Shown: piece by piece, positions 21,131 to 45,650 of the stretch
Numbering within the stretch: position 1 is the stretch's first letter
How the letters are laid out: each line of letters starts with the position of its first letter
Source: Clarias gariepinus
Lineage: Eukaryota
Assembly: GCF_024256425.1 (NCBI RefSeq)
Contig: NC_071115.1
Coordinates: 12,526,746 to 12,590,745, forward strand
DNA length: 64,000 nt
Reading direction: 5' to 3'
The notes under the pieces: generated by a model
What the model saw: only the letters and a program-made list of their open reading frames with translations
What the model was told of the DNA's origin: nothing
Databases searched by the model: none
Made by a program: the position numbers and the translations under genes

Positions 21131-21299
21131 TTTTCATATCTGGGCTGGTTTACAGTGACTAATGGTGACAGTTAAAATTATTATCATCCAGGTTGTCATC
21201 CTCACTGAGTCCCCTGATTTAATCTGTTTCGCCAACCGAAATTGCTGTTTACCATCTTAAATCACGTGCCATATGATGCTCACTCACTCACTGTCTATA

Positions 21300-21565
21300 T
21301 TGTGTTATCCTGTATACAGGGTCGTGTGGGGCCTGGAGCCTATCCCAGGAGTATGTGTGCACGAGGCAGGGTACATCCTGGATGGGTTGCCAATCCATTG
21401 CAGGGCACACACATACACACACTCACATGCACACTATGTCATTTAGTTCTAATCTGCATGTCTTTGGACTGTGGGAGGAAACCGTAGTACCCAGATGAAA
21501 CCCACCAAGAAAGTGGAGAACATGCAAACTCCACACAGTGCATATCACTGCGCCACTGTTCCGCC
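21300..21565 (-). mobile_element. SINE copy, same family
   Basis: cctgtatacagggtcgtgtggggcctggagcctatcccagg...ggatgggttgccaatccattgcagggcacac... Confidence 0.7.
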
Positions 21566-22760: not shown

Positions 22761-23536
22761 GACACATGTTTGATCCACTTATTTCAAACATCATAATAAA
22801 ACTGGTCCTGGACCAGTAAACAATTCATAAAGTGATTGTACAAATAAAAATTGTGGTTGTGCATTTTAAAGTACGTTGAAAAAAAAAACAGTGCACACTG
22901 AAAAAAGAACAGCATTGTCAAAGTCAAACGAAGTTAAAACAAGATTGTCAAAGTGTAATACATTATTAATGATTCAGGATCATCTGTGAAATGGCTTTGC
23001 ATTACATATCAACACTGGTTGTTTCTGCAACATCGTCAGCATTGCTTCATTGTTAACTTTGGCACAAAAATGAACATGCTTTTTTTGACTAACGTTGACT
23101 TTTTCCAGAGCATGGTCGTGAATCACAGTATAGTCACTCTGTCACCCAAAACAGCTGACCATCACAAACTGTAAACAAGCCCGGTTACCAAGTATGTAAC
23201 AGTTAAAGTCATGGGCAGGAGAAAATGTATCATACATTTCAAAGTTTATTTGATACTTATAAATGCACATGTAGTAGACAAAGATACATTCTTTTAGTTC
23301 ACTGCATGTTTCATAAGGCTTTGGTGGGTATGCTAAGAAAATTATTCCTTAAATGTTTAGTCAGGCACCTTGTTAAAGCAAATATATTTGCATAGAATAC
23401 ACTGCAATGTACTATTGCAAAGCATTTCTCTTACTACACCGTTTTCTCTGATAGTAGTAACGTTTTAGGAACTCAAACAACATAAAAGATGTCTGATAAA
23501 ACAAACAAACAAAAATTGCATTATAAGTGGGACGTA

Positions 23537-23542
23537 TTTATT
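23537..23542 (-). terminator. mvp: mvp polyadenylation signal AATAAA (minus strand), about 25 nt after the stop
   Basis: The plus strand reads tttatt at 23537-23542. A second candidate lies at 23246-23251 (plus tttatt) for a longer 3'UTR. Confidence 0.45.
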
Positions 23543-23565
23543 GTCTTGTCAGTTTCCCGGTTCTT

Positions 23566-23688
23566 CTACTTTTCCTCAGGGGTCTTCATCGCCCCCAGCA
23601 GGCCATTAGCAGTAGTGAACAGATTGATAGGAGAGGAGCCATCTGTTATCAGAGTGGATTTAAGACCCAGAGCTTGTAGAAGTTTAAC
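23566..23688 (-). CDS. mvp: mvp terminal coding exon (includes stop TAG at 23568-23566)
   Basis: Reads [40 protein letters not shown]. Acceptor tccatccag|GTT. Matches human [32 protein letters not shown]. Total CDS is 2619 nt, 872 aa. Confidence 0.9.
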
Positions 23689-24136
23689 CTGGATGGAGAG
23701 GGAAAAAAACAGCAGCAATGAGTGAATAAACAGCACTAATAATCAGAAATATAATAAAACACGTTAGAAGTTTAGAAGAAGAAAACGACTGGATACATGG
23801 TGAGCGAATCTCGAAATTTTTTATACCTCCTTGTGTATTACATCATATTAAATTATTAAAATTATTGAATTAATTACTTTATCATGTGGTGGTACAGTAG
23901 AAAAAAATTTAATCAAACACCACAATAACCATGAGATGGTTAAACACTTATCCATGATTTTTTTCTTTAAAGATATGATCATATTCCTTCCCGCAGTCAA
24001 GCCTTTTTACCTACAGTATACTCACTATTTCAGCCAGATCTACAAAGTCAATCCACACGACCTGAGTGCCTGGTGCAATAAAGCTCATTTAACCTAGAAG
24101 AAATACAGGAGGTCTGGGTCTGTGAGTGCCGCGTAC

Positions 24137-24325
24137 CTGTAGCTCTGGTCCAGCTCTGGCCATCTCCGTCAAAGTGCCACTGCCAATAGCTTCTACCAGC
24201 TGCTTGAAACGTTGGCTTTCGATCTCAGACAGTTTCTGCTGCTTCTCCACTTCCTGGCGATCCAGTTCCTTTTTATAATTGAGCTCCTGCTCACGTGCTT
24301 TTGCCAGACGCACCAGTTCAGCTTC
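24137..24325 (-). CDS. mvp: mvp exon 16
   Basis: 63 codons: EAELVRLAKAREQELNYKKELDRQEVEKQQKLSEIESQRFKQLVEAIGSGTLTEMARAGPELQ. Acceptor tatcttag|GAA, donor CTACAG|GTACGC. Matches human [64 protein letters not shown]. Confidence 0.85.
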
Positions 24326-24734
24326 CTAAGATAGAATTAGTGTAGGAAACCATGAGTGTAATACATTATTTCAAAATTAAAATGGCCATACACAGATGAG
24401 ATCATACTTTCAGAAATGTGCAACTACTGCCTTTAAATTTAAATGCAAATCTTGGTGGAGAGAGGCTCAAACACTGGGAGCAATTAATTAATCATCTTGA
24501 TACCCTATTAAAATGAGAGAATGGAAGTACAAAGAAGAGAGAAACAAAGACCGAGAGAGAGACAGCGAGAGATTGTCAAAGATATTAATTACCTAAGAAG
24601 AAATACTGCCAGCTCTGCATACTGTATTCTACTGGGATTATGAAATGCTAATGTACGCGTGCCCACACAAGTGCCTGTGTGTGAGACATGCTGATGAACT
24701 GCACATACGTGACGCTAAGAAAAGAAAGACGTAC

Positions 24735-24861
24735 CGCTTCTATTCTCTGGGCTTCAACTTTGAGTTTGGCCTCTTCAACAGCAGCCTCACCCTGGATACG
24801 TGCTGCCTCTGCCCTGGACTGAGCTTCTGCCTTTGCTGCTCCTGTACTCTCCACTGCAGCA
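24735..24861 (-). CDS. mvp: mvp exon 15
   Basis: Reads (S)[42 protein letters not shown]. Acceptor (GT)14-ttgtag|T, donor GAAGCG|GTACGT. Matches human [41 protein letters not shown]. Confidence 0.85.
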
Positions 24862-24865
24862 CTAC

Positions 24866-24893
24866 AAACACACACACACACACACACACACAC
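24866..24893. repeat. (CA)14 microsatellite on plus, (GT)14 on the mvp strand, abutting the exon 15 acceptor
   Basis: acacacacacacacacacacacacacac lies directly 3' (plus) of the acceptor at 24862-24863. Confidence 0.95.
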
Positions 24894-25468
24894 ATTAATA
24901 CTAAGGAATACACAGTTTGCTGTTTTGTGCTATTGTAGCTGTAATATATAGGCTATAAAAGTAATAATACTTAAGAATAATGCATTAACACAAATCAGCC
25001 ATGACTAACACCATCGCCTGGTGAAATGAACAACACTGATTATCAATTATATACCAGGAAAAAAAAAAAATCAATGCTGGCTGTGATAGAAAGGCACCAC
25101 AACACCCAGTGAATCACAGCCTGCCATGTTCTGGGCCCAATAGGCAAACCGTTGAAGATTGTTGACCTGGCCTACAAATTCCAAAAAGGCCGATCCAAAG
25201 GGGCCCAAACCCAAAGAACTCATGGGTTTGCATCTTTTATCCTGGCGTCAGACATGACAGTACACCCCCATACTGGCCAGAGCTGCCAGAAAGGGGAACC
25301 AAAAAAGCTGGGTGGTTTTAAAAATATAAGTGATTGGTGTATATGGCCAACCAAGTTGAAAACACATTATTGTGACAAACTTCTAACCATACTTTGTCCA
25401 AAGACCCACTTGCATTCTAGTCTCCATTTCTTCAGCCTTGCTGGGAGCGAGAAGCAGCAAGATCTTAC

Positions 25469-25585
25469 CTGAGAGCTTCCAGCTCTAGCAGCTCCTTCCT
25501 GGCCCTCTCAGCATCCGCCTGGTCTGTGATCTTCTGCCTCTCCAGTTTGCCCCGTGCCTCCTGCTCCAGACGCTCCGCCTCATGC
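25469..25585 (-). CDS. mvp: mvp exon 14
   Basis: Reads (R)[38 protein letters not shown](S). Acceptor cactctcag|G, donor CTCAG|GTAAGA. Matches human [40 protein letters not shown]. Confidence 0.85.
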
Positions 25586-26108
25586 CTGAGAGTGTAATAC
25601 AGAGAGAAAGAGTGATTATTCATTATTCACCAAAAACAAATATGAACAAATTAATTCTAAGGGCAGATGCCCAGTGTAATGCATGGGTGAGGTGTTGTGC
25701 TTCCTGTCAACGTTAACATCAACAAAAATAGCCTGAGTCAGGTCAGAACTCGACATTAGCTCAGCAAAATAGCTGATTTTCCAATTGATTTCCTTTGAGA
25801 ATTTGGTATAATGCATTATTGTACCTTAACAATTCTCTTTGGATGCCCATCCCAACATTATCAAGCATGTGACCTATTTATTTATGTCAGTTAAAAAAAG
25901 CTGAAAAAAGGCATGCATGCCAGAACAGCACAGACTGCCAAGGTAGCATATTAATTTAGTTAAAAAATATTGGCAGGAGAACAGAACACCTGTGCAATGA
26001 CTGAAGTTTTCCATCAGCTGAATAACACAAAATCTGATCAGAACCTGAAGGACAACAGGGGATATCATAATGTCGTTCAGCAGTGAGAGGTGAGAGGTGT
26101 ATACTGAC

Positions 26109-26320
26109 CTAGCTGTGGCCTCCTGGGAGTTGGTGGTGATTTCAATGGCAAGCTGGACGCTTTTCTGCAGGGCGTCACGCGTGCGCTGGTCCACCGGCTC
26201 TACTGACTGAATGTCCACACTGCTGATCACCAACCCGTTCTGACTGAAGCGCAGATTCTGTCTTACTGCCAGCTTCTCGTCAAAGCCAAACACGGCTGAG
26301 CAGATAATCCGGTTCGAGTT
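26109..26320 (-). CDS. mvp: mvp exon 13
   Basis: Reads [70 protein letters not shown](R). Acceptor T22-cacgcctag|AAC, donor GCTAG|GTCAGT. Matches human NSARIIRTAVFGFE...[39 protein letters not shown]. Confidence 0.9.
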
Positions 26321-26514
26321 CTAGGCGTGCAAAAAAAAAAAAAAAAAAAAAGGCAAGAGAAGAAGTGAGTGTGTACCATGCATACTGTAGAACCTTTATG
26401 CATGCATGCTATGTTGATTGAAGGGACAGATGGAAAGAACACATGCTAGAATATCAATGGTGGCATTACGAAAGATTTCTATGTATATAATAAACGGAGC
26501 AGCTTTTAATTCAC

Positions 26515-26659
26515 CTTGTGGAAGTCATCAAACTGCACTGAAGCCACAGCTCCTCTGATCCTAGAGGCAATAGCTTTGCAGGCATCACCCACGAAGTCAG
26601 GCACTGAGAAGAGAGCTGCAGCTTGTGCAGGGTCTGACTGGTTCTTAATCTCGAAATGC
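26515..26659 (-). CDS. mvp: mvp exon 12
   Basis: Reads (W)[48 protein letters not shown]. Acceptor cttgttcag|G, donor CACAAG|GTGAAT. Matches human [48 protein letters not shown]. Confidence 0.9.
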
Positions 26660-27482
26660 CTGAACAAGTGCAGAGAAAATGAACAGTAATTCAAAAACAA
26701 TATTTTAGACAATACGTGCAGTTTTATAAATCCATCACTGTCATGACAATATAGAGACAAAATCAATTTGGCAAGCGTGATGGTTTTGAAAACAGTTTAG
26801 TTTTACAAAATTATTTTCTACATTCGAGAACAATACTGGACTTTTTCGATACTATAAAATAACACAAGGCATTAGGGAATTAATTAACAACAACAAGAGT
26901 AAGTTGTTATTTAAAAGGCAGAAAAGTCAGCTATTCTGGAACGGTTCTTGCAAGATGATGAAACTGGCTCTCATGAACCCCGTCCCAGGAAGACCAGACC
27001 AAAACTTACTTCTGCTGCACAGAAAAAGTTCATCGAGTGTTTCCTGCATCACAAGTCACCAATTAACAAACAACACCTCAGATTAGAACCGTTATCAATG
27101 CTTTACAGAGCTTACAGTAGGTAGAGAACACATCTCAATATCAGCTGTTTAAAAGAGATTATTGCATATTGTAAATGCCTTCAGTATTCTTTTATAGGAA
27201 TTAGAAGGTTTGACTGGTAGTGTTAGTTACAGTAATTATTACTGCAGGACAAGTGATGACTGTATAATGAGGACTCGCAGAGCTTCTTGGCAACACATTC
27301 ATTTTTGACTCCCTATAGGGCTTGTACTTGTTATTCTGGCTGTAATCTGTCTGCACGTCCTCTTATTAGACTCTTAGGACCCAAGAGTCCTGCTGTCATG
27401 CATTGCTTTTTACCCCACACTTGGATAAGTAGCATATTTTGTAATGCGTGATATTTTTTATACACAGATACATCCCGGGAAC

Positions 27483-27483
<1 letters not shown>

Positions 27484-27520
<37 letters not shown>
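27484..27520. repeat. Compound (GA)n(GACA)7 microsatellite 11 nt inside the mvp intron after the exon 11 donor
   Basis: gagagagagagagagacagacagacagacagacagacagaca. Confidence 0.95.
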
Positions 27521-27532
27521 TGCGCGCTTTAC

Positions 27533-27730
27533 CAGTTGTAGGCGAGCTGGAGCTGCAGACGGGCATGATCAGCGGTTTCTATGGTGATGATGTCAGTGCA
27601 GAAATCAGGGCCGAGGAGCAGGCAGATGGCTTTAATGACGTTGGCTCGCTTGGGTTTCTCTCCAGATAGAGAGAGTACTGTGAACTGCTCATCAGGGCCT
27701 AGCATCACCATATCAGGTCCAAACACCACC
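27533..27730 (-). CDS. mvp: mvp exon 11
   Basis: Reads (R)[65 protein letters not shown](W). Acceptor ctctcag|G, donor AACTG|GTAAAG. Matches human [66 protein letters not shown]. Confidence 0.9.
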
Positions 27731-28562
27731 CTGAGAGAGAAGGCACAAGATTCTTAAAAACAGCTTTAATGCAAATATTGCCATCGAAGAGAGGAAAAGG
27801 TAGTGGTTGAAATTTAGTTCAAAAATAATTTGAATATTTAGTGACCAAGTGGATTAATAAATTTATTGATCTTGAGTAGGTGCTTTATCTATCCTGGGAA
27901 CACTGGGTGCAAGGTGGGAATGAGATGCTGTGGCAGTTCAATACAGCAGACCATGCACACACTACGCATGTCATAGAATAATGGATACATAACATTTTTA
28001 ATAATGTGTTCTTCTTAAACATTAGATAAGCAAACATTAATAAAAAAAAACCTTCCTGAATAACAGGCAAGTACAGATTCCAAAATGTCCTGTTAGTTTT
28101 TTTTTCTTGTTTATAGCGCCACACAGTCACCATTCACTTTATTAGAAACACCTGTACACATGCACATTCATGCAGTTATCTAATGAGCAAATCATATATA
28201 ATTATATAAAGCAAATTATGTGGCAGAAGAGCAACACAAACCATCATGCATATACAGTAAACATGCAAGTGCTTGTGTGATCTCTGTGATCTTGACATAG
28301 AATGGTCAAATGGGGTAAAAAAGCCGTGTTGATGAGAGAGGGGAAGTCTGTAGAAATTCACAAGCATGCTGAGCGGTAATGCGTCTCAGAACACACAACA
28401 AAGCCAACCTTGAGGTGGATGGGCTACAACAGAAGGTCACATTCAACAACGCATTTCCGTCCACAGAGCTGTTGCTCGCTCAAAGTTTGGTGCAACTTGA
28501 GATTGGCGAGGAGTTTTAGAAATACCTTAACCTGATATTCTTATACAATTACCCATACCATA

Positions 28563-29282
28563 ATAAAATTCACAGAGCCCACACTAAAGCCCAATCCCAA
28601 ATCTACCCCTTACCCCTACCCCTCTGTTTGACGCGTTAACGTGAAGGGGTAGGGGTGTCTCATTTCTCTTTTGGTTGGAGGGGTAGGGGTAAGGGGAAGG
28701 GCCTGATAGCCCTCCAAACGAAGATTTTTCGGGACCTCACTTCAAACGAAGGGCTAACGAAATTTTCAAGATGGCCGCTCACTCGAGCTAGCAGACCCAT
28801 AAATTTAACGAATTTTTGCCATTAATAAGGATTTTTATGACAAGTTTTTATTATATGTATATTAATTTTAGTCTTGTGTTTATGGTGATGTTTTGTAAAA
28901 AAACGTTTGCAAAAAAAACGCTAAAGTTTGCTAGCGGATAGCGCCGATTGCGCAATATTACAAAAATATATTTTTATGTCATATACACTTTACTGCATGC
29001 TACAAACAAATATAAAAGTTCAGTAGCACGGCAGTTTGCCGAGCTTTTGATAACGCATTGTTTGTTTTGCTTACGGCCATACTGTATGTGTACATGTAAA
29101 TGAACGGATACGTATGATGACGTATAACAGTGTTGTAGTGGTGTCCCATTTCTTAGGGGAAATATTTTAACCCTTCCCCTTTCCACTTCGTTTCAAGGGA
29201 CAAGGGGAAGGGGCGAGGGGTAGGGGAAGGGGTAGAAAATAGAATTGGGATTGGGCTTTAGTGTTCATTCTGAATTTTATGC
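28563..29282. mobile_element. MITE-like element with long (about 100-190 bp) G-tract-rich terminal inverted repeats, in mvp intron 10
   Basis: Left end ataaaattcacagagcccacactaaagcccaatcccaaatctaccccttacccctacccc... Right end ...ggggtaggggaaggggtagaaaatagaattgggattgggctttagtgttcattctgaattttat. The ends are reverse complements. Subterminal ccaaacgaag / cttcgtttcaagg are also inverted. Confidence 0.6.
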
Positions 29283-29407
29283 GGATATTAAGTGTGGGAA
29301 TTCTTTTGCATGTGATTAACTGCAATGAGCAGAAGCACAGGTGTTCCTAATGAAGTGGACGGTGACGATACATGTTGCTCTTACTGTGGAAACACATCTT
29401 TTGTTAC

Positions 29408-29643
29408 CTGGCTTTCTTCTCTCTGTAGTCATACACCTGCACTGCAGCATTATGGGGCACACGGTAGGACACCACCCTGGTTTTGTCCCTGTCTTCAGCA
29501 GCGGCCTGTTGGCTACGGTCAGAGCGGCCGGCTAGAGGGTCACGCATACTGCTCAGCAGCTTCTCCACATTAGCAGGGAGTTCCTTTTCCCACAACTCCT
29601 CGTCGTGCGTCAGCATGTATGTGCGGCCAATCACAGCGCGTAC
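29408..29643 (-). CDS. mvp: mvp exon 10
   Basis: Reads [78 protein letters not shown](R). Acceptor ctgggcag|GTA, donor GCCAG|GTAACA. Matches human [23 protein letters not shown]...[25 protein letters not shown]. Confidence 0.9.
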
Positions 29644-30201
29644 CTGCCCAGAGCAACGAGGAGTACAAGAGACAAATATTTACATAAAGCTTTACATAGC
29701 TTCAGGTCTGTTTGCATGTTTTTCTAGCAGAACTCAGCGTGGCGGAGGGTGCAGTCACTTGCTAGTGCAATACTATAGGCAAGCTGATCAAGTAACACCT
29801 GTTATTATGCAGGCTTCCACTGCATTAAGAATTTACAGCTGGAGGTCCACCTGCTTTGTTACTTAATATACAGTAACTCCTTATTGAAGACTCAGCCTTT
29901 TGGGACATTAAATATGAGTTACGATTGTTTAAAGCTTGCTGTTGCTTCATTTATTCATGAGAGACTATAGACACGATCGTGACCTTCCATCCTCTGTAGA
30001 ATGGGATTATATGTTTTAGAAATGCAGGGTGGATCTGACTTTTCTCTGGACATTTCACAAGCCAGATTTCATAAGCCGTCTGTGGGTGTGGACTCGTGAT
30101 CCTACAACAGAAGCATTTCAAGGTCTAAGACTCCTACGCACATTCTCTCCTCCTTGTATGAATTGTGTTTATGAAGAGTATTAAACAAAAAAACTATTGA
30201 C

Positions 30202-30402
30202 CTTGCCAGTCTTGATGTCGCGCACATATATTCCTTCATTCTCATCCAGCGGAATAGCCTGGCGTCGCAGCATGACCTCTACAGTGGCAGGCGGCACGTA
30301 CTCGATTGGCCCACGCAGCATCCAGCGGTCTCCCGGGCGTCTCGGTACACCCTTCTTTTTGGATTTTCCAGCTAGCTCCTCTTCCTCGCCTTCTTCCTCT
30401 TG
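30202..30402 (-). CDS. mvp: mvp exon 9 (acidic linker plus repeat)
   Basis: 67 codons: [67 protein letters not shown]. Acceptor ctgcatcag|CAA. The donor AAG|GTCAAT is weak, but the next exon starts with the expected V. Matches human EEGEDEEK...[43 protein letters not shown]. Confidence 0.8.
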
Positions 30403-31075
30403 CTGATGCAGAGACAGGGGGAGAGAGGGGGTAAGACAGAGAGAAGGAAAGAAAAGGGGGCAAATGCAACGGCTGGAGATGGGAGGAGATATACATGGCT
30501 GCGTGTGAACCAAGCACCGAGTGTGTGTGTAGGGCTGTATGTGCATGGTAATGTGTACGTTTGTGTAAAAAAGCAATGTGAGAGACAAATAATTATAATA
30601 ATAATAATAATAATTAAACGTAAAGCAAATTTTATAAGAATTGAAAAGTAAAATCATTGGGAAAGAGGATTTGATATTTAATCAAAAAAAGGGGAAGAAA
30701 GACAAAGATGATGGTTAATTAATGAATCCCCTGATCACCAAACTATTTCTTTATTCTTAATCAGCATCCAATATTTTATATACATACACAATAGTTTATG
30801 CATGTACACACACATATATACACACACACACACACACTGTGTATATATATATTTTAAAAAATTCACAACGCTCCCTTCTTATACGCTGCATATTTTAAAG
30901 GGCGTGTAGTGTGCATATGAGGTGTTGGCTAATCTGACAGTTTAAACACACCAGCAGGATTCTGGCTAAACGAGTAGTGCGTGCATTTAAGCACGAAAAG
31001 AATTTAATGGTCTATTTATCTTCATGCCAACTTTTCCTCTCTTTACTTTTCAATGCTCATACTGCTCTGTCTCAC

Positions 31076-31201
31076 CGCCTCTGTATCATTGAAGGCCTCC
31101 ACTGCACGCAGCACCAGTCCCTCCTCCTCAGACAGCACATAGACATCCTGGATACCGTTCTCCAGGCGCTCTCCGGGCTGCAGGAAGAATGAGCGCTCGC
31201 C
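31076..31201 (-). CDS. mvp: mvp exon 8
   Basis: 42 codons: [42 protein letters not shown]. Acceptor tctcttag|GGC, donor GAGGCG|GTGAGA. Matches human [34 protein letters not shown]. Confidence 0.85.
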
Positions 31202-31486
31202 CTAAGAGACAGAGAGGGATATACATATTTTATATCACTGGCATACAGTATTTTCAACTTTTCAGTGCTTAGCAAGAGCAACGAGTGTGGCTTGTGGACG
31301 AAACACAAGAGGAAGAACCAGGTTTAACCAAGTTGAATATCTGTGTGAAAATTGCATTTCTAATCTTGACAAATTGGCAATATTTTATTCTATTCTAAAA
31401 TTAAACTTGACCCATGTAGCTCATAATATTGCAGTTTTGTGTTCCTAATTCGGCCAGTTAAGAGGTCTGCGTATAAGAAAAACTAC

Positions 31487-31723
31487 CTTCACCACTCTCT
31501 TCTGTCCAAGCTGGGGCTTTCCATCAGGCCCGACTGGGTCCAAGATCACACAGTACTCCCTGCTGCTCAGCGTGGTCACATCCACAACCCCGACAACTTC
31601 CTCAGCCACAGAGGGGATGTGCGCTTCTCTGTCCGCCACCGTCACCAGCCACTCCTCTCCTGTCCTTCTGTCTCGCCCTCCTGCATCCCGGAATGGACGC
31701 AGAGCACGAACGTGCAGTGCACG
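31487..31723 (-). CDS. mvp: mvp exon 7
   Basis: 79 codons: [79 protein letters not shown]. Acceptor ttttatcccgtcag|CGT, donor GTGAAG|GTAGTT. Close match to human MVP. Confidence 0.9.
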
Positions 31724-31889
31724 CTGACGGGATAAAAGCATTAATGGATTCAAACTTAACGCAATAACAAAAGATCCTCTGAGTAAGCCCTTTTTTTTGG
31801 GAGGGGGAGATATTTTCATAAACGTCATGCATCTGCTCTATGCTACAGTATGCACATTTACAAAATTGGTTATGAAGAAAAGCTGTTAC

Positions 31890-31984
31890 CTTATCAGTGA
31901 GGATGAATGCATTCACAATATCGATGACCTCCTCATGCGCTCCAGGAAGGTATGCTCCAACCTTACTGACCTGCCACTCCTCAC
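31890..31984 (-). CDS. mvp: mvp exon 6
   Basis: Reads (G)[31 protein letters not shown]. Acceptor gcgtcag|GT, donor GATAAG|GTAACA. Matches human [32 protein letters not shown]. Confidence 0.9.
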
Positions 31985-32340
31985 CTGACGCACACAAACA
32001 CATCCACAATCACATGCTAATGTAATCAGCTTGCCAATTATCTTTGCATTATTTAAGCACAATAGGTTCACATTAATAGTGTGTAGAAAATGTGATTCTC
32101 AGGTATTTGTTGAAAAGCCTTGTACCAGCAAAGTATCCAAGTGTCTGCTGTGAACTTTGCTATTTTGCATAACTATTTTGCATGTTATGAGGGGCGTTCA
32201 AGTCAAACTGGGACTACTGTGAATGAAGGAGTAGAACCAATTCTTAGACTTTGCTTTGCCGTAGTAAACATTCAAATGGTGCTCTGGGATAAGTGCATTA
32301 TTTAACATTTTTTTTTTAGAAAAAAAAAAAAAAAAAAAAA

Positions 32341-32785
32341 CGGTTTTCTCCGAGTGGTGCAGTGGTAAAGTGCTCGCCCTATCATCTGGCAATCGCTGGT
32401 TCGATTTCCAGATGATGCTGTAACCTCTCGCAGCCGGAGGTCTAGAGAGAGCTGATTGGCTGAGCTCTCTCAGAGGGGAGGGATGAGAGGTACTTTGTGC
32501 TCCCACATTAATCACAGCTGTACAGCCAATCACGGGCGTCTGTGAGCTCACACAAGCAGAAGGAGTGGATAGTGCTGTCCTTGTAGTGTGTTACGCCGCT
32601 CCTAACGGTGAGTGAGCAAGCAGTTCGAAAAGATGTGACGTCATGTGGTTCGGAGGAAACATGTGATAGTCTTCGGCCCTCCCGACTGAGTGGTACTAGT
32701 AGCCTTAATATGGGAGTCCCCTCGTGATGGGGAGGAATTGAACACAACCAAACCAGGGAGAAAAATAAAAAATAAAAATAAAACA
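32341..32785 (+). mobile_element. Different tRNA-derived SINE with A-rich tail, in mvp intron 5
   Basis: Head gagtggtgcagtggtaaagtgctcgccct..ggttcgatttcc. Tail aaaaataaaaaataaaaataaaa. Preceded by T9/A22 homopolymers. Confidence 0.55.
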
Positions 32786-32947
32786 GTTTTCTAGCATCTT
32801 TTGCACGAAAATGGACTATCCCGGTTTGATTTGAACGCCAGTCATGTATTCCTGGGACAACAATGTAATGGTATTGATTGATAACTTAGGTGTTTGAGGA
32901 AAAACTGTTTTTTACATGTGTGTGACACGTGTCGTGTATATGCTAAC

Positions 32948-33079
32948 CGGTCACTCTTCGAACTCCGCTGCGATCAACGCCCTCTTTACGAGCACGAAGG
33001 CGAATGGCCTGGTTTTCCCGAATCACTGTGGCTTTGATGGTCTCCAGGACAGCCACCTCCTTCTTGGGGATGTATGTTC
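32948..33079 (-). CDS. mvp: mvp exon 5
   Basis: Reads (G)[43 protein letters not shown](G). Acceptor ccttcag|GA, donor ACCG|GTTAGC. Matches human [33 protein letters not shown]...RVTG. Confidence 0.9.
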
Positions 33080-33299
33080 CTGAAGGAGGTCAGAGACTAT
33101 GGGTTAGCCAGGCGTAGGTGATGCGGTGGAAATATATAAAAATATACAAGATTTAGATAAATAATCCACGAACAATATCAGCACAGAATCTAGCTTTGCT
33201 AGTTAACATCATAATACAGTCATATATTTAAAAGTGAATTGTTAAAATATGGAGAATGCTGGTTTTAGTTTGAGGAGGAGTAAAAGAAAGTTAAGCTAC

Positions 33300-33423
33300 C
33301 TGGCCCCTCAAACAGCCACTCATCTCCAGCCACTCTCTTCTCTCCATTATCCTCTTCGAAGTCAAGAAGAGCCTGCAGCCTGAGTGCCGTGTCAGGATAC
33401 ACGATCTGCAGTGGGGTCACTTC
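33300..33423 (-). CDS. mvp: mvp exon 4
   Basis: Reads [41 protein letters not shown](G). Acceptor tattag|GAAGTG, donor CCAG|GTAGC. Matches human [42 protein letters not shown]. Confidence 0.9.
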
Positions 33424-33578
33424 CTAATACGCAGAAAAGGTTATAGGTTAGTAAATATATATTTATGAAGTCCTTTAGGAAAAGCAGTTAGAGGTCACCT
33501 GATTAAAAGACGCTTCTTGTATAAACTCTATAATATAATACAAAATTGAAAGGGATGAAGTGAGATCAAACAGCCCAC

Positions 33579-33774
33579 CTTCTGGATCTCTTCTCCAGGG
33601 TAGAGAGGAAAAGGATCTTGGGTCAGACGGATCTCCAGGTCTGCATGGCGGAGCTTAGCCTGGCCTGAGGTGTCAAACTGGACCTCTCCCTCATCATCAC
33701 GAGCCACCGGGTTCAAAATCACACAGTAATGGCGAGGGGGCACCATGAGCATACGAGTCGGGGAGAAGAGAACC
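33579..33774 (-). CDS. mvp: mvp exon 3
   Basis: Reads (R)[65 protein letters not shown]. Acceptor ttctcag|G, donor CAGAAG|GTGGGC; the phase fits exon 2. Matches MVP repeat 1-2. Confidence 0.9.
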
Positions 33775-34509
33775 CTGAGAAAAGGTGCAAGATGTAGAAG
33801 AGTAAATGAAATACAAGTGCAGATATCATGGCACACTTCAAGATGGGCACAATCCATCCATCTAGGAACCTCTATAATAAAACTGGGGACTGTGGAGGCC
33901 AATAGTGATTACCGTGTGTATACTGTGTGTGTATACAAGTCAATGATTAAGTCAATTAACCTGTCCAACAGGTCTTCGGACTAAAGAAAGAAAATACAAC
34001 TGTAAGGTTTCTGATGTTGTGCAAGCTTTCCCATGTCTCCATGTCCATGAAACATCCTCCTTCACTTCCTCATTTTATATATGGCAATACCTACTATAGC
34101 CTGTGTCTGGATGAACTCATGCAAAGTGCTCGCTGGAACCCTTTTGTTTAACCGAAATAGGCAAATGTGCATCCCATAGTCGGTCTGTCTCTCGGTCTCT
34201 ATATGACCTGCATGTTAATGCAGCAAAAAACAAACAAAACAGGATGTATGTGACAGAGGGCACATGGTCATGCATGTGTCCCTCTCTTCTCGATCAGGGT
34301 CTAGGAATAGTTGAAACAAGGCAGAATTCATACTGAATGGGCTGCGATCAAAAGACATCTTGATTAGAGGACACCAATCACACACTCATTCACGCCTTAG
34401 AGGCAACTGAGTGTAGGCAAATTCACCTACCTGCTGGGTTACCTTTTTTTCCTGGAATAATTGATATAAATAAAAAGACGATGCACACTGGCTTCATGTT
34501 GCCCTACAT

Positions 34510-34750
34510 GTCTAGGGTTATGGGTTTGATTAATTTCTCAGGTCGGTGTGCATGGAGTTGGTCTGTTCCCCTCTGGCTTGGTGGGTTTCCTCTGGGTACT
34601 CTTGTTTCTTTCAGTCCAAATATGTACTGTATAAGCTGACCGGTGTTTCCAAATTGCACAAGTGGGTATGCTTGCACTTTGCGATGAGTTAGTACCACAT
34701 CCAGAGTGTACCCTACCATGTGCACCAAGTTCCCTGGGACAAATTCTACG
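34510..34750 (+). mobile_element. SINE copy (5' truncated)
   Basis: ggttatgggtttgat..gtgcatggagttggtctgttcccctctggcttggtgggtttcctctgggtac...cagagtgtaccctaccatgtgc. Confidence 0.6.
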
Positions 34751-36740
34751 CACACATGTACTTACACAGGATAAGCAGTATAGACAATATATGGATAGGA
34801 TACAAAAGAGAGCAACCCAACCTCCTTGGAGCATGAAACAATAGGCCCACAGTTATACCCACTCTGCCACCACGCCACCCCTGGAAACCTTCTGTTTGTT
34901 GGAAATCTGACCCCAGCCAACAAGCCTACACATGTTATTCCAAACAATGGTTTTGGCCTGGCTTAGAAAGATCAAATTTAGAAAAGGAGAATATTTTTCA
35001 AGCAGTAAGATCACCTCCTCTTAACAGAAACATTAAAGTATCCTTTACACAAAAAGGATTATTATTTTATTCTTATTATTGTCCACAATTTTCATTTTCC
35101 TCATCAGTTCCTAATTTTGGTCATACTGCTTAACAAAATCCTCAGATTTCCACCCATGGAGAAGAGATCACAGATGCCCATGAGAAGCTATGGTCACTGA
35201 CTGGGTAAAGAGAGTATGCTAAGCATCTCTACAGATAACATGATCACCTTTGCTCCGTAAACCTTTGGTGCATGTTAAAAATTCACAACTGAGATCTCTC
35301 AATGATAAAGCGGACACTTTCCTGTACGGCTGTACAAACTCCTCTTTAAGAGAACATCAACAGGTGTTCTTACAGGTGCAGCATTGAATGTTTGTTAATA
35401 GACAAGTATTAATCACAGAATACAAGACACTATGATTTTATTATGCACATATCTGATTTGTTTCTTTAGTTTAGGCCTCAATTTTAGATTTTTCTGACAT
35501 GTGGTTTAGCTTTGTCCTTGGCTCAAACTCCTAAAGAAAAGAGGCTCAGCTTTGTCGATTTTCCTTAAAAAGCAGATCTAGTTTAAAAAAAGGTTTGGGG
35601 CTTTTGGAGAGAAGAGAATGGATCTTTTAATTGCAGTGTAATTGACCTTGCCAGCAGTAAAGGACTTTAAAAATGATCAACAGCTTCTTTAATAGCGATA
35701 TTTAAATCATTGTATGACCTCAATGAATAGATTGTGACTATGTACCTTGTATGATCATAACAGATCATGTTTCTCTCTTTTTAGTGAAGATATAGCTGAG
35801 AGATATCAGTAAATCCTAACAACTATTTTCTTAAAAAACTGCACAAATCAGTGTCTAAAACTCCTGATTTTAAGCATGAGTTTTATTACTCTTTATAGAA
35901 GTTTCTTTTATGCAGAAATGTTTTTAAAAGCATCTTTTGCTTATGCCATATTTTTATATGTGCCCAAGACTTTTCCACAGTACTATAAGTAAAATAGTTG
36001 TTAGGTTTTACTGAGCATGCTGGAGAATATGAGTTCTTCTGGTAACCTTGTCACACTCGCTTCTTTCTATTTTTATGCAAATCCCAGGAGCGTGCATTAG
36101 GTTTTTTGTTTTCTGAAAACTGGTCTGTCTTGTACCATATTTTTTTTCTTTACCACCATACATATGTTCTCCTGTAATGGCAATGTGTATAACAAAATTA
36201 GTATTGGCGACCGCACGAAACCGTGTAGGTGTGATAGGGGTATTAAAAATTGAGGGGATTGCTTTGTTAAGTTGCACAGCATCCTGTGTGGTAAGCAGAT
36301 TGTGCTTAGGTACTTTTCATGCATCTTTACTTGAATGATTTCTATATTTATTACTTTTACTCACTGTATTTATGCTGAAAAACTTCATACATGAAGTAAA
36401 TATACAATCTGCACTGTTTTTCTAACCTAACCGTAATCATTTACGTTATCAACTTACACCATATCAAAACAGACAATTCCACAAGTCCAAGTGGTCCAAG
36501 TTTACAGGAATTTATGTTATGAGGTTATGAAGGCGCAGCTTGATTACTTAAGCAGTGGGTCGCACCCACTTGGTCTGCGGATTCTCCTGACTTTCTGACT
36601 TAATCCTGTCAGAGTATGATTAGAAGTGATCTAATCGTACTAATCTACTCATACTTAAGAACTAAAAGAAAGTCTGCAGATGGTATGATTAGATTAGTAC
36701 AATTAGATCACATCTTGACACTCATTTCATATTTTCATAT

Positions 36741-37261
36741 TCAGTGTTGGGGACCATTACTTTTTAAAGTAACTAATTACATTACAAAATACTATCTTTA
36801 AAAAGTAGTCAGTTACATTACAGCATTACTTTCTGATAAAAGTAACTAGTTAGGAGTACTTTTTCATTGCAGAAAACCAAAACTCCTTTGTGGTTCCTCA
36901 TGCATGTTGTTTTAGTCAAGCCCTTTATAATTATACTAATAACTACTAATACCCCTATCCCCAGTTTCGCGCGGTGGCCGTAAGTACGGTCCATCATGAT
37001 TTACTGCGGGATAGGGGTACAATAGCAGGAATAACGGGCGGGTTATTGGGGGCAAAACTTGTAGAACGACTTTCACAAACACACACAATAACGGATTGGA
37101 AATGACTGCTGTCTGGCTCATGGACTGCATAAATTGTCGGAATAACGGATTACATTTTTAAAAAAAGTAACTAAATACTTAAATGGTGGACATAATGCAT
37201 TAGATTACCCGTTACCTCAAAAAAGTAATCCAAGTACTCTAATGCGTTACACCCAACACTG
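36741..37261. mobile_element. Non-autonomous hAT-like DNA transposon in mvp intron 2
   Basis: Terminal inverted repeats CAGTGTTGGGGACCATTACTT... and ...GCGTTACACCCAACACTG. Internal subterminal repeats gtaactaa/gtaatcc. Flanks ttcatatt / tccatata resemble a decayed 8-bp TSD. Confidence 0.55.
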
Positions 37262-37381
37262 TCCATATACTGCTTTTAATTCCATGATTGATAAATATGC
37301 TTTTTTTTTTGGCTGTACTTAGGTAGCAGCATGATATTGTATTGGGTTGTCCCTGGTAATTCACATCCCTAGAGTGGTTAC

Positions 37382-37542
37382 CTCTCATTATCCTGGCGGA
37401 TGTAGGTGAGGGGTCCAACCTCAACCCGAGCAATGTTGGTGTTCTGATCCAACACATGGATGTAGTGGTGTGGAGGAATCCTGATGATTGAAGCGTCAGT
37501 AAGATCGCTGTGCTCCAGGTGACCTGCAGGTCTCTTCGACAT
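37382..37542 (-). CDS. mvp: mvp coding exon 1 (exon 2 37382-37545; ATG at 37542-37540)
   Basis: Translates [54 protein letters not shown], matching the MVP N-terminus ([16 protein letters not shown]...YIRQDNERV). Acceptor cag|ATCATG, Kozak A at -3; donor GAGAG|GTAACC; ends in phase 2. Confidence 0.9.
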
Positions 37543-40461
37543 GATCTGAGTGGGACAGAGGGGAGCGTTTATTGATTGTGAAGTCAATTATGTGTCAGCA
37601 ATCAATCAGTGATAAAACACTCAACCAAAATCTAACAGCATCCAGGGAGTAAAGTGCTGACTCTGATAAAGCATGTATCAACTTTTTAGCTATAATAAAA
37701 TACACAATTATTCAGCTAAAAGTAAAACAAAATAACATGCTACGTTATTGTAAATATACAGTATGCGGGATAATTATGTTAGCTAAAACTCCTGTAAATA
37801 CAAAAAGGTTGACTTGACCGTCAAATGACAGTAATTATACAGACAAGTGTACAAATAGAGATTTGAAAAACAGCAAAAAAAAAATTATTAATATTTTAAT
37901 TCTGATTTCTCTTACATAACAAGGTTTTAAAAAATGCTTTTAATCATGAAAACCATCTTGCTACATAATAAAAAAATTCTTTGTAATAGGCCATGTAATA
38001 TCTTTATTACCAGACACACCACAATTCTTATCTCTTTATAGCCACAGCAATATGATAAGGTTACTATGGAGGTGAACGTTGTAAGATAGGAAGACTGTGA
38101 ATGAGTGGGTCTCACTAGGGTTCACGGCGAACTTTGACTGTCAAACCTGATCACTGAACCACATAGCGAATTACATACATAAGCGTCTGTACAAAAAACA
38201 TGCACACACCCACACCTGCCTTTCGCAAGCCTAAGAACAAAGAAGATTGCATTTTGTTCCCAGCCCTAACTATACTTACTCAAATGGCCCAGTGCAAATA
38301 AAGGTAGCTAAATGACAAGGTAGTGTTTATTTGACCACCTGACATGTATAAATCATAAAAAGAAAAGAAATAGAGCAAAAGGGCTGGGCCAAGCATGACA
38401 TCGAGATCAAGAATTGCAGATAGACAGGTATGAATTATCAGTTTGTTTTATCATAACTCACCCATAAAACACATTGTCACTTAGTCAGTATGGACAACCA
38501 AATTTTGCTAGGGTTCAAACTGAATTTTCAAAATGACTAGCAAACTGTATTTTTGAAAATTTTGTGAAGTCAATTATTAAAAAAAAATTTTCTGAATGTG
38601 TAAAAGAAGGAGAATCCATCATGTGATTCTTAACGTTGCTGATTACATAATTATTAGTGAGCCTGCTAAGGATTTCTGCCTGCTACTTCTTTTTAAACAT
38701 AAGAGCCAGAAGCAATAGTATTCCATGTCTATGTTCATGACATTTAAGGAAACTTACATAGTTCACTTCTCATACGGCTTTTGTTGTTACTTTATTCTTG
38801 AAATCTGATTTGAAATATGTACCATGCTGATCAGGATTTAGTTCCAAGAAAAGAAAAAAACAACATATATAGATTATACTATTCAAAGTAATGTAAAAGC
38901 AAGACTCGTATGTCTAGATTTAACATTCTATGTAATGCATTAAAACAAGCATTTTAAAAAAGTTTTTAAATTTTTTTAATTTATGATTAAGCACGCATTT
39001 ATACATGTATAAAATACATGCACTTTCCTGTACATCAACTTGAATAAAAGAAATACTTTAACCACTTCCAGCACTTGGGTCATTCTACAGAAAAGGTGGA
39101 ATTTGGGTAATAAAAATCTCCTGAAATGCATTTCTTCTTTCACACCCAGAACTTTTTTTTCATAGCAATAACTTTCTTTTTAACTTCCACTTGAATCCAT
39201 AAAAAATAGAGCTTAATGCCTTTTTTTTAAACATACATTTAATGCTCGCTTTCTAGTAAAACCAATGGCAATTTCTGACAGTTATAATTATAAAAAGAGT
39301 AACACCAATGATGGACTTAAAAGCTTCGCATAGAATTGCGAAATAAATTATGACATTTTTAAATAAATTAAGACAGACATCAGACATACATTTCGCATTC
39401 GTCCAGTTCTCTCTATCTAGTGACCTCTGATGTAGCAACAATTTTAAATTGTCGGAAGTCTTTCAAAATAAAACGCCTGATGTCCAACAGTAACATCAAT
39501 TACATAGTTTGGGGTGACATATCTATTTCATATTATAAATTCCTCAGTTATTGTTTTACAATTTTGGTGTTTCACATATTTTTTAAGACATCAATGTTAT
39601 TGTGAAACAGATATATTTGATAAAAAAAAGCCTTTAGGTGAACAAGTACATAGTACCACTTTGATGTATAATCAAAGTGACAAAGCATTTCTTTGAACTT
39701 GGTCTCGCTTCAATTAAATACTGAACATTGAAAAGAGAGAGAATGTATTTCATGATTGTAAGTACATACTATATTTTCATATACATAGACAAGTAATGTG
39801 TCTGTTATGTTATATATGCCATTTAAATGATTTTGTCATCAGCAAACCTAAATCACAGGACTTTCCACCATCTTTGTGGAATGATTCAAACTCACGTGAT
39901 TTGTTTGTTTGTTTGTCTGTATTTTTTCCCTGTTACAAAATAAAACAAACACGGAAATACTAACCATGTATTAGAATAAACAAAGGCTGTAATTTATTTG
40001 GGGGTAACACAAGTCAAAGCGGTAATTAAAGAAAAACAAACGAAAGAAAGACGCTTCCGCATGGAGGACGGAGGTGTGGCACAGAGTAATGCAGCACAAC
40101 GTTTGCGCTTTATTAACTGATATAAACGGTACAGCCTATAGAATCCTTACAAAACAGGAGCTTTCATGTAGTTTTTTTAAAACAAACATCGAGTTATTAC
40201 AAGCTGTCTAGGTGACGTCGCTCATTTCACTTCCGTATTGCTAGCCTGCTCCGAGGCTGAGGCTAAATCTCCCGACTTTAATTCCTTTCATATTAACTGT
40301 GTATTAAATAAACAACCACATTACATAACTCTTAACCCTAACCGAAACGCGCACTTTTTCCAAATTACTGAGAGTTACGATGTCAACGCAGTTCAATTTG
40401 CTGTCAAAACATAACGCATAATGAAAATATTATAACAAATAAAATTAAAACCAGTACTTAC

Positions 40462-40610
40462 GGAGAATTTGGTGAAGGCGTCAAGGTTGGAGTGAATGGA
40501 AGGAGTTTGTGTCTGGAGTGCGGAGCAATCCTGTGTGTCAATCTCCTTAACCTGTGGGCGTGACGACGCTTTACGCCACATCACCTTCCGGGAAGCGAAA
40601 GAAAACGCTT
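40462..40610 (-). other. mvp: mvp 5' non-coding exon 1 (5' boundary approximate)
   Basis: Minus-strand exon ends AAATTCTCC|GTAAGT; the donor GT is at 40461-40460. It pairs with the acceptor cactcag just upstream of the ATG exon at 37545. A TATA-like/GC-box promoter lies immediately upstream (higher coordinates). Confidence 0.5.
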
Positions 40611-40870
40611 TTTCAGTACAACAGGTTTAAGAATAATGTATGTGTATATCGCATAATATATATGTGCTATTTCCCTCTCTCTCTTTCACTCTCTCTCTCT
40701 TTTTATATATGTGCTATTTCTGTAGGGCTGCGTTATATATATGCGGCTAAATCCGTACATCCATCTGGCAGTGTAGGAAAAGGGGAGGGGGGAGGGGGCG
40801 GGGGTCTGTGGGAAATCCCGGCAGTAACGTCACTTCCCGCGCAATGAGCAAAAAAAAAAAAAAATTTTGG
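40600..40870 (-). promoter_or_regulatory. mvp: mvp proximal promoter: GC boxes, palindromic NF-kB-like GGGAAATCCC (40810-40819), CRE half-site/ETS, TATA-like CATATATAAAAAG, (CT)n
   Basis: On the minus strand these read GGGAAGTGACGT, GGGATTTCCC and CCCGCCCCCTCCCC upstream of the ATATATAAAAAG and (GA)n stretch. A CTTCCGGAAG palindrome sits at the putative TSS, 40585-40600. Confidence 0.45.
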
Positions 40871-41169
40871 AAACCTGAGGAAAAAAAGTGAAAGTGCTCC
40901 TGAACTTAAACTTGGTGTCAGAACTCTGTTTATTTTTCTTAAATATACATGTAAATGAAAAAAAAAAAGCTGTGGGCATATTCTTGGGGTGTAAATTCGT
41001 GATTGAAAATGTATGACGTCACATTAATAATAATAATAATAACAATAGATTTTATTTATAATGCACTTTATATTTGAAGCAAATCTGAAAGTGCTACAAA
41101 TTATTTCAACCCAAAAGCTCTGATAAAAAGATTTAAGACCAGATCTAAAATAATCAACAGTTTGTGGCA

Positions 41170-41900
41170 TCCTCATATACATATGGAGAGCATCCATATC
41201 CATATCCAGGTGCCGCTGAGCAAAAAGCCTGATCTCCCATAGTATGAAGCTTGGTCTTCTGAGGTTTCAAAAGATGAACTGAGACAGAGCGGAGGTTGCG
41301 TGTAGATGTATGTGAAGTAACAAGTTCTTTGAGATAGGGAGAGGCATCCGCATAGATGCACTGGTGGATAAGAAGGGAAACCTTATATCCAATTCAATTC
41401 TGAATGAAACAGGGAGCCAATGAGGATGGGCCAAATTTACGTGCTTGCATCAGGATCCTATCAGTAGCGCAGTTTTGAATATACTGCAGCTTTTAAAGGC
41501 TTTTCCCAGAAGTCTCAAAGAGGAGTACATTGCAGAGTTCCAGCCTGAAGGAGAAAAACACATTGATTAACTTTTCCGCATCTGCAAATGTAAGTGCTGG
41601 ACGCAGTTTAGCAATGTTCCTGACGTGAAAGAAAGATGACTTACACAGATGTTTGATATGAGCCTCATATGTCAAATGAGAGTCTATTTTAAACCCGAGG
41701 TTAATAAAAGGTGTTGACAATGGGATATCCTGACCAATAAAGGTAATGCTAGTGATGCTAGATGTCTAAACCTGTCCAAAGTGTACCCCACCTCATACCC
41801 TAAGGCATCCTGTGACCCTGTACAGAACAAACAATATAGTTTTAAAAAACGAGACATTCCTTGGAAAACTGGGAGGCAGGTGGCAACCTTATTTCTCCAC
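41170..41900 (-). mobile_element. LINE-derived fragment (ORF2 C-terminal-like) with a SINE-core-like 3' segment
   Basis: Minus-frame translation reads ...DSHLTYEAHIKHLCKSSFFHVRNIAKLRPALTFADAEKLINVFFSFRLELCNVLL, a motif typical of fish non-LTR retrotransposon ORF2 tails. Adjacent cctgtccaaagtgtacccc matches the SINE core. Confidence 0.4.
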
Positions 41901-45479: not shown

Positions 45480-45650
45480 ATCTTCATTTATACCACTTAA
45501 TCCTGTATACAGGGTCACAGGAGCCGATCCCAGAAAACTTGATGGATGCACCTTGGACAGGGTGCTACTTTATCACAGTGAGTAGACACATATACAGACA
45601 CTCACACACAGACAAATTGGGAATGCCAATTAGCCTAATCTGCAAGACAT
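45480..45650 (-). mobile_element. SINE fragment
   Basis: cctgtatacagggtcacaggagccgatcccag...ccttggacagggtgctac...aattgggaatgccaattagcctaatctgca. Confidence 0.6.

What the first reader, a model, noticed from the sequence alone, without database searches (positions are those of the whole stretch)
23515..40870. Complete major vault protein gene reconstructed (17 exons, 872 aa)
Sixteen coding exons on the minus strand join in consistent phase through canonical GT-AG junctions. They give a continuous 872-codon ORF whose every exon aligns to the human MVP sequence that I recall (human MVP is 893 aa). The matches run from MVP repeat domains and shoulder through the cap-helix to the C-terminal ...[20 protein letters not shown]. 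The gene spans about 17 kb. Its introns hold at least two SINEs, one hAT-like and one MITE-like element. The exact exon boundaries listed in the features are testable predictions.
Basis: partly seen in the sequence, partly recalled or inferred. Interest (0 to 1): 0.5.

Follow-up and report, generated by a model that had tools for sequence, protein, structure and literature searches.

The report
Catfish major vault protein gene

Summary
The finding holds. I rebuilt the gene independently on the minus strand. It has 16 coding exons (37542..23566), and all 15 introns between them are GT-AG in consistent phase. The CDS is 2,619 nt and gives 872 aa with no internal stop. Pfam finds every MVP module: Vault repeats, Vault_2/3/4 and MVP_shoulder. 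The protein aligns in one stretch (15-865) with solved human and rat MVP (E = 0). It is an exact suffix of RefSeq XP_053370824.1, "major vault protein [Clarias gariepinus]" (913 aa), so the window is C. gariepinus and every internal junction matches the public model. The one difference is the start. That extension has no counterpart in other catfishes, whereas the MSKRP/MSKKG-type start is shared across teleosts. The 872-aa form is therefore the conserved core, and whether the extension is translated is untested. The transposon side-claims are only partly reproduced. There is one clear tRNA-derived SINE, one doubtful tRNA-like head and two elements with terminal inverted repeats. No hAT-type element with an 8-bp target duplication was found. 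The gene is ordinary and already known, so interest is low.

The parts
40462..40581 (-). Exon 1, minimum extent (5' boundary unknown). It holds the in-frame upstream ATG at 40581-40579 that RefSeq uses as the start (adds 41 aa). The donor GTAAGT follows 40462.
37382..37545 (-). Exon 2. The acceptor AG lies just before 37545, and the conserved start codon ATG (MSKRP...) is at 37542-37540. This is coding exon 1 of the 872-aa model (161 nt from the ATG).
33579..33774 (-). Coding exon 2 (196 nt)
33300..33423 (-). Coding exon 3 (124 nt)
32948..33079 (-). Coding exon 4 (132 nt)
31890..31984 (-). Coding exon 5 (95 nt)
31487..31723 (-). Coding exon 6 (237 nt)
31076..31201 (-). Coding exon 7 (126 nt); it ends at the start of the variable acidic loop
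30202..30402 (-). Coding exon 8 (201 nt)
29408..29643 (-). Coding exon 9 (236 nt)
27533..27730 (-). Coding exon 10 (198 nt)
26515..26659 (-). Coding exon 11 (145 nt; shoulder domain)
26109..26320 (-). Coding exon 12 (212 nt; shoulder domain)
25469..25585 (-). Coding exon 13 (117 nt; cap-helix)
24735..24861 (-). Coding exon 14 (127 nt; cap-helix)
24137..24325 (-). Coding exon 15 (189 nt; cap-helix)
23566..23688 (-). Coding exon 16 (123 nt including the TAG stop at 23568-23566; cap-ring)
23537..23542 (-). AATAAA polyadenylation signal 24 nt after the stop codon; it implies a 3' UTR of roughly 50 nt
34497..34793 (+). Diverged copy of a tRNA-derived SINE in intron 2, antisense to the gene. The family has at least 13 copies in the window.
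28581..29264 (.). 684-bp element with 43-nt terminal inverted repeats (84% complementary) in the intron between coding exons 9 and 10; MITE-like, class not determined
35806..36014 (.). 209-bp element with 24-nt terminal inverted repeats (96% complementary) in intron 2; MITE-like, class not determined
39078..39884 (.). Segment of intron 1 that is a diverged copy (66-78%) of window 60122-62370; a dispersed repeat of unknown class

Best explanation
The region is the single-copy, intact mvp gene of Clarias gariepinus. It has 17 exons over about 17 kb on the minus strand. It encodes the major vault protein, the roughly 100-kDa subunit that builds the shell of the vault ribonucleoprotein particle. 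By homology with the solved rat and human vaults, 78 copies assemble into that shell. Nine N-terminal repeat domains form the barrel, with the N-termini meeting at the waist. A shoulder domain follows, then a long cap-helix and a cap-ring at the C-terminus. Shown here: the exon structure, the intact ORF, the domain content, identity with the public RefSeq protein, and colinearity with solved MVP structures. Inferred from homology: particle assembly and cellular role. The conserved product is 872 aa starting at MSKRP (ATG 37542). An in-frame ATG in exon 1 (40581) could add 41 non-conserved residues, as in the RefSeq model.
For: The independent exon model gives 2,619 nt and 872 aa, all GT-AG, with no internal stop. 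Pfam finds Vault (4 stretches, 1e-61), Vault_2 (1.4e-35), Vault_3 (6e-37), Vault_4 (3e-22) and MVP_shoulder (1.7e-52). A PDB sequence search matches human and rat MVP chains at E = 0, in one stretch from residue 15-865 to 3-851. The best database hit is XP_053370824.1 / KAM9457874.1, major vault protein [Clarias gariepinus], at 100% identity and 100% coverage, and the model is an exact suffix of it. All 15 junctions align without gaps to transcript-derived orthologues P0004 and P0015 and to other fish and human MVP. The only exception is the naturally variable acidic loop at junction 7. Orthologue N-termini (MSKRP..., MSKKG..., MAAKKG..., MANRKG...) support ATG 37542 as the conserved start. 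The Clarias extension has no significant similarity to the extensions in the Pangasianodon and Silurus models.
Against: No transcript or protein data from this species were available here, so the junctions rest on homology and on agreement with a computational RefSeq model. RefSeq's start (913 aa) differs from the 872-aa start. The upstream ATG has a purine at -3 (GGTGATGT). TATA-like motifs lie 75-160 nt upstream of it, so it may well be inside the mRNA and used first by scanning ribosomes.
Confidence: 0.97

Rival explanations
1. The main product is the 913-aa N-terminally extended protein of the RefSeq model, initiated at ATG 40581 in exon 1, and not the 872-aa protein.
For: The ATG at 40581 is in frame with no intervening stop, and exon 1 splices with a GTAAGT donor to the acceptor before 37545. 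It has a G at -3. TATA-like motifs at 40709-40703 and 40662-40656 would place a transcription start upstream of it. RefSeq chose it. Engineered MVP with N-terminal additions has been solved (a 934-aa chain, 6bp7), so an extension is structurally tolerable.
Against: Tachysurus, Hemibagrus, Trichomycterus and an unnamed catfish transcript (P0004) start at MSKRP. Other teleosts start at the equivalent position. The extensions in the Pangasianodon and Silurus models are not significantly similar to the Clarias one (118/500 and 198/500 shuffles reach the observed score). This is the pattern expected for 5' UTR read as ORF. The transcription start is unknown.
Confidence: 0.35
2. The locus is a non-functional or decaying duplicate (pseudogene or teleost ohnologue) and not the working mvp gene.
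For: Teleosts underwent a whole-genome duplication, and at least one species in the hit list carries a 'major vault protein-like' second entry (Megalops).
Against: The ORF is intact, all splice sites are canonical, and identity to other catfish MVPs is 90-93% along the full length. Only one set of MVP exons is present in the window. One neighbour is a CD225/PRRT2-like gene; from memory, PRRT2 lies next to MVP in human 16p11.2, which fits orthology. Only one C. gariepinus MVP appears among the hits.
Confidence: 0.02

Closest known systems
RefSeq XP_053370824.1 / GenBank KAM9457874.1, major vault protein [Clarias gariepinus], 913 aa
   Same: Residues 42-913 are identical to the 872-aa product reconstructed here, so all 15 internal coding junctions and the stop codon are the same.
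   Different: The public model starts 41 codons earlier, at the ATG in exon 1 (40581).
Human MVP (893 aa; PDB chains such as 11dr_A) and rat MVP (861 aa; 4V60, 4HL8, 7PKR)
   Same: They are colinear over residues 15-865 versus 3-851 in a single HMMER stretch (E = 0). Global identity to my recalled copy of the human sequence is about 71%. The repeat domains, shoulder, cap-helix and cap-ring are the same.
   Different: The fish protein has about 12 extra N-terminal residues, a longer acidic loop (residues about 352-372) and a shorter loop after the shoulder. It lacks the Pro/Gly-rich C-terminal tail of human MVP.
Other catfish MVPs (Silurus meridionalis, Hemibagrus wyckioides, Tachysurus fulvidraco, Trichomycterus rosablanca, Pangasianodon hypophthalmus)
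   Same: They are 90-93% identical over the full length, with the same MSKRP start in most.
   Different: Indels are confined to the N-terminal 20 residues and the acidic loop. Some models carry unrelated N-terminal extensions, or fusions with the upstream dynein light chain gene that look like annotation artefacts (P0123, P0124).

Membership tests
Major vault protein (MVP) | Array of N-terminal vault repeat domains (R1-R9 in the rat structure) | tested here: met
   Pfam Vault PF01505 (4 stretches, 1e-61), Vault_2 PF17794 (2 stretches), Vault_4 PF17796 and Vault_3 PF17795 all score above their curated cut-offs.
Major vault protein (MVP) | Shoulder domain after the repeats | tested here: met
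   PF11978 MVP_shoulder matches residues 543-661 over the full profile 1-118/118, E 1.7e-52.
Major vault protein (MVP) | Long C-terminal cap-helix followed by a cap-ring, colinear with solved MVP | tested here: met
   A single alignment stretch, 15-865 versus 3-851 of human MVP, includes residues 662-865. There is also a match to a C-terminal fragment chain, 9z5n_B (767-865).
Major vault protein (MVP) | Intact full-length ORF of about 860-900 aa with functional splice sites | tested here: met
   872 aa, no internal stop, 15 GT-AG introns. The junction-flanking residues are conserved in orthologues.
Major vault protein (MVP) | Self-assembly into the 78-subunit vault shell; association with PARP4, TEP1 and vault RNA | not testable with these tools
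   Inferred from about 71% identity to proteins whose assemblies are solved. No vault RNA (Rfam) hit in the window, which is uninformative because vault RNA genes need not be linked.
Orthologue of vertebrate MVP (not a paralogue) | Reciprocal best similarity and conserved neighbourhood | tested here: inconclusive
   The top 120 hits are MVP or unnamed, apart from one entry mislabelled as a sodium channel, which carries the MVP Pfam domains (P0035). A CD225/PRRT2-like exon lies 5 kb downstream, and from memory PRRT2 neighbours MVP in human. No whole-genome check for a second copy was possible.
tRNA-derived SINE (intron 2 element 34497-34793) | Multi-copy dispersed family with a tRNA-like head carrying box A and box B | tested here: met
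   The family consensus carries TGGCTTAGTGG and GGTTCGATTCC. There are at least 13 copies in the window, and the intron copy matches consensus positions 29-331 at 69%, E 1.7e-35. ARAGORN and Rfam do not call the heads as tRNAs.
Two scans of 23000-41500, one starting from the inverted repeats and one from the duplication, found no such element. Old degraded copies would escape this test.
   Terminal inverted repeats are present at 28581-29264 and 35806-36014. There is no clear target duplication, and no further copies occur in the 64-kb window. Genome-wide copy number is not testable here.

The most novel reading that the evidence does not exclude
In Clarias gariepinus a lineage-specific in-frame upstream ATG in exon 1 is really used, so vaults in this species are built from a 913-aa MVP. 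Its 41 extra, non-conserved N-terminal residues (78 copies per particle) would pack into the lumen at the particle waist. This would be a natural analogue of the N-terminal tags used to engineer vaults.
Probability: 0.3. Interest if true: 0.2.

Novelty: already known. Interest (0 to 1): 0.07.

Why it matters
It matters little beyond validation. It shows that the first-stage reader can reconstruct a 16-exon vertebrate coding sequence exactly, from raw sequence and memory. It identifies the window as Clarias gariepinus. It also flags a small annotation question, the 872-aa versus 913-aa start, that affects how the public protein record should be read. MVP itself, its structure and its gene organisation are well known.

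Tried and rejected
1. Look-ups of the encoding contig failed. No transcript-level confirmation from this species could therefore be obtained.
2. A homologue search with the 59-residue N-terminal extension returned no candidates at all, not even the RefSeq protein. It is uninformative.
3. ARAGORN and Rfam found no tRNA, vault RNA or other RNA family in the window, at gathering threshold over the whole window and at E-value threshold over 34300-35100. The only weak hits were U4 (E 0.26) and lincRNA-p21_2 (E 9.6), which I dismiss as chance.
5. The sigma-70 promoter and terminator scan does not apply to a eukaryotic gene, so I ignored it.
6. Two hAT-type searches (8-bp target duplication plus terminal inverted repeats) were negative.
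7. My first exon-7 donor was off by 3 nt and gave 873 aa with a non-GT donor. I corrected it to the GT donor, which gives 872 aa.
8. I considered a pseudogene or paralogue reading and rejected it (see the rival explanations).
Full report
**Observation.** The ORF listing of 23000-41500 already shows MVP-like peptides on the minus strand ([16 protein letters not shown]..., [23 protein letters not shown]). The base composition is 32-44% G+C, and the coding pieces are short and interrupted, as expected for a vertebrate gene. I used my recalled human MVP sequence only as a lead. A tblastn with it against the window placed 16 colinear blocks between 37500 and 23566, all on the minus strand, with exon-level E-values down to 1e-30. 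No second set of blocks appeared elsewhere.

I then read the flanks of every block and fixed the boundaries by hand. My first attempt at exon 7 gave a non-GT donor and 873 aa. Moving the boundary 3 nt to the GT donor gave the final model.

The final model has these 16 coding exons:
- 37542-37382
- 33774-33579
- 33423-33300
- 33079-32948
- 31984-31890
- 31723-31487
- 31201-31076
- 30402-30202
- 29643-29408
- 27730-27533
- 26659-26515
- 26320-26109
- 25585-25469
- 24861-24735
- 24325-24137
- 23688-23566

All 15 introns are GT-AG with polypyrimidine-rich acceptors. The phases are consistent, the CDS is 2,619 nt, and the product is 872 aa with no internal stop.

**Identity.** Pfam finds every MVP module above its curated threshold:

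| Family | Stretches | E-value |
|---|---|---|
| Vault | 4 | 1e-61 |
| Vault_2 | 2 | 1.4e-35 |
| Vault_3 | 1 | 6e-37 |
| Vault_4 | 1 | 3e-22 |
| MVP_shoulder (full profile) | 1 | 1.7e-52 |

A sequence search of the PDB matches human (893 aa) and rat (861 aa) MVP chains at E = 0. The match is a single stretch from residues 15-865 to 3-851, so the cap-helix and cap-ring are covered as well.

The large protein database gives a 100%-identity, 100%-coverage hit to P0001. That protein is XP_053370824.1 / KAM9457874.1, "major vault protein [Clarias gariepinus]", 913 aa. The next hits are other catfish MVPs at 90-93% and other teleost MVPs at 85-89%. My 872-aa model is an exact suffix of P0001. The window is therefore from C. 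gariepinus, whose genome is published and annotated (PMC11458897). Every internal junction I derived equals the public model.

As a check independent of that gene prediction, I aligned the model to orthologues, including two proteins called on short RNA-seq assembly contigs (P0004 and P0015). The ten residues around each of the 15 junctions align without gaps. The only exception is junction 7, which abuts the acidic loop that varies in length among species.

**The start codon.** This is the only real discrepancy. P0001 carries 41 extra N-terminal residues (MWRKASSRPQVKEIDTQDCSALQTQTPSIHSNLDAFTKFS-I). They come from an upstream exon with an ATG at 40581. That exon ends at 40462 with a GTAAGT donor and splices to the AG just before 37545, so the junction reads ...TTC TCC | ATC ATG TCG....

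Evidence that ATG 37542 is the ancestral start:
- Hemibagrus, Tachysurus, Trichomycterus and the transcript-derived P0004 all begin at MSKRP.
- Thunnus (MSKKG), Megalops (MAAKKG) and Chanos (MANRKG) begin at the equivalent position.
- The extended Silurus and Pangasianodon models carry different sequences. The Clarias extension is no more similar to them than shuffled sequences are: 118/500 and 198/500 shuffles reach the observed score.

Evidence on the other side:
- The upstream ATG has a purine at -3.
- An in-frame stop lies 16 codons upstream of it, so 913 aa is the maximal ORF.
- TATA-like motifs lie 75-160 nt further upstream, so the ATG may well be in the mRNA.

I therefore treat 872 aa as the conserved functional core. 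I give about a one-in-three chance that the extended form is the main product. Only data on the transcription start or on the protein N-terminus can settle this.

**Gene ends.** An AATAAA lies at 23542-23537, 24 nt after the stop. The supported span is at least 40581 to about 23515, roughly 17 kb.

**Mechanism.** The steps below come from established knowledge of rat and human vault structures and are not shown here. MVP is the shell subunit of the vault particle. 39 copies form each half-vault. The repeat domains build the barrel wall, and the N-termini meet at the waist facing the lumen. The shoulder domain leads into the cap-helix, whose coiled-coil bundle drives assembly, and the cap-ring closes the particle. 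The catfish protein keeps all these modules colinear, at about 71% identity to my recalled human sequence. The same assembly is therefore the expected function. The differences are confined to the N-terminal ~15 residues, the acidic loop (about 352-372), a shorter loop after the shoulder, and the absence of the human Pro/Gly-rich tail.

**Intron repeats (side-claims).**
- A self-comparison of the window revealed a dispersed family. Its aligned consensus is about 330 nt, with box A-like (TGGCTTAGTGG) and box B-like (GGTTCGATTCC) motifs, so it is a tRNA-derived SINE.
- A search with that consensus finds at least 13 copies in the 64 kb. Only one lies inside mvp, at 34497-34793 on the plus strand in intron 2 (69% identity, E 1.7e-35).
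- A tRNA-like head abuts it on the minus strand (about 34890-34800). It has no significant match elsewhere in the window, and ARAGORN and Rfam do not call it. A second SINE is therefore doubtful.
- Two elements have terminal inverted repeats: 28581-29264 (43-nt repeats) and 35806-36014 (24-nt repeats). They lack clear target duplications and have no further copies in the window.
- Intron 1 holds a diverged copy (39078-39884) of a repeat that also occurs at 60122-62370.
- Two scans for hAT-type architecture (8-bp duplication plus terminal inverted repeats) found nothing in 23000-41500.
- Overall, one SINE is confirmed, MITE-like elements are plausible, and the hAT claim is not reproduced.

**Surroundings.**
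- Downstream on the same strand lies a CD225-domain exon (17426-17779; Pfam CD225, 2e-9) that resembles PRRT2. From memory, PRRT2 neighbours MVP in human 16p11.2.
- Upstream on the same strand are two exons of a DNAL4-like LC8-type dynein light chain (55399-55316 and 54390-54202; Pfam Dynein_light, 4e-26).
- Some public catfish models (C. magur P0123, Pangasianodon gigas P0124) fuse this dynein light chain, and in C. magur also a pentraxin-like gene, to MVP. This looks like an annotation artefact.

**Verdict.** The observation and the interpretation are both correct, and the gene is ordinary and already annotated. The small open points are the start codon and the repeat classification. Interest is low.

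Noticed in passing
window 40594-40586, 40819-40810, 40803-40795, 40832-40827, 40709-40703 (minus strand): Consensus-type promoter motifs lie in or upstream of exon 1: a GAS/STAT-like TTCCCGGAA 5 nt before the upstream ATG, an NF-kB-like GGGATTTCCC, a GC box CCCCGCCCC, a TGACGT half-CRE and a TATATAA. From memory, human MVP is interferon/STAT1-responsive. These are pattern matches only.
   Followed up: partly
window 2993-3110, 11251-11651, 12195-12508, 16437-16783, 21285-21533, 41771-42925, 45481-45644, 47419-47647, 50717-50984, 53031-53161, 62476-62738, 63692-63977: A tRNA-derived SINE family of about 330 nt, with box A and box B, is very dense in this window: at least 13 copies in 64 kb at 61-90% identity to the consensus. 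The copy at 16437-16783 is the youngest (90%).
   Followed up: partly
window 49260-50355: A satellite-like tandem array of about 1.1 kb lies in the intergenic region between the dynein light chain gene and mvp. The basic unit is about 26 nt (ATCTAATCACACATAATCTACACCTA), with higher-order periods of 67, 189 and 378 nt. The 378-nt period shows 88% matches.
   Followed up: partly
window 17426-17779 and 17799-18260 (minus strand): A CD225/dispanin-domain exon (PRRT2-like; Pfam CD225, 2e-9) lies 5 kb downstream of mvp, preceded by a low-complexity Pro/Gln/Glu-rich ORF. It suggests conserved linkage with the human 16p11.2 PRRT2-MVP neighbourhood (the human arrangement is from memory).
   Followed up: partly
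window 55399-55316 and 54390-54202 (minus strand): Two exons of a DNAL4-like LC8-type dynein light chain (Pfam Dynein_light, 4e-26) lie 14 kb upstream of mvp. Public models in Clarias magur (P0123, 1443 aa) and in two pangasiid catfishes, Pangasianodon gigas (P0124) and Pangasius djambal (P0125; both 955 aa, only P0124 read), appear to fuse this gene to MVP. These are probable annotation artefacts.
   Followed up: partly
window 39078-39884 and 60122-62370: These are two diverged copies (66-78%) of an unclassified dispersed repeat. The second copy is interrupted by a short internal tandem array (61180-61692). No ORF of 110 aa or more lies in either copy.
   Followed up: no
window 36622-36715 and 36758-36852: There is a 94-bp near-perfect hairpin (33-nt arms, 91% complementary, 28-nt loop) in intron 2. 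Next to it is a 37-nt tandem/palindromic repeat (AAAGTAACTAGTTACATTAC...). This is possibly the internal structure of an old DNA transposon.
   Followed up: no
P0035 (database hit): A Sarotherodon galilaeus entry named 'voltage-gated sodium channel type V alpha' is 878 aa, is 88% identical to this MVP and carries the MVP Pfam domains. The public name looks wrong.
   Followed up: no
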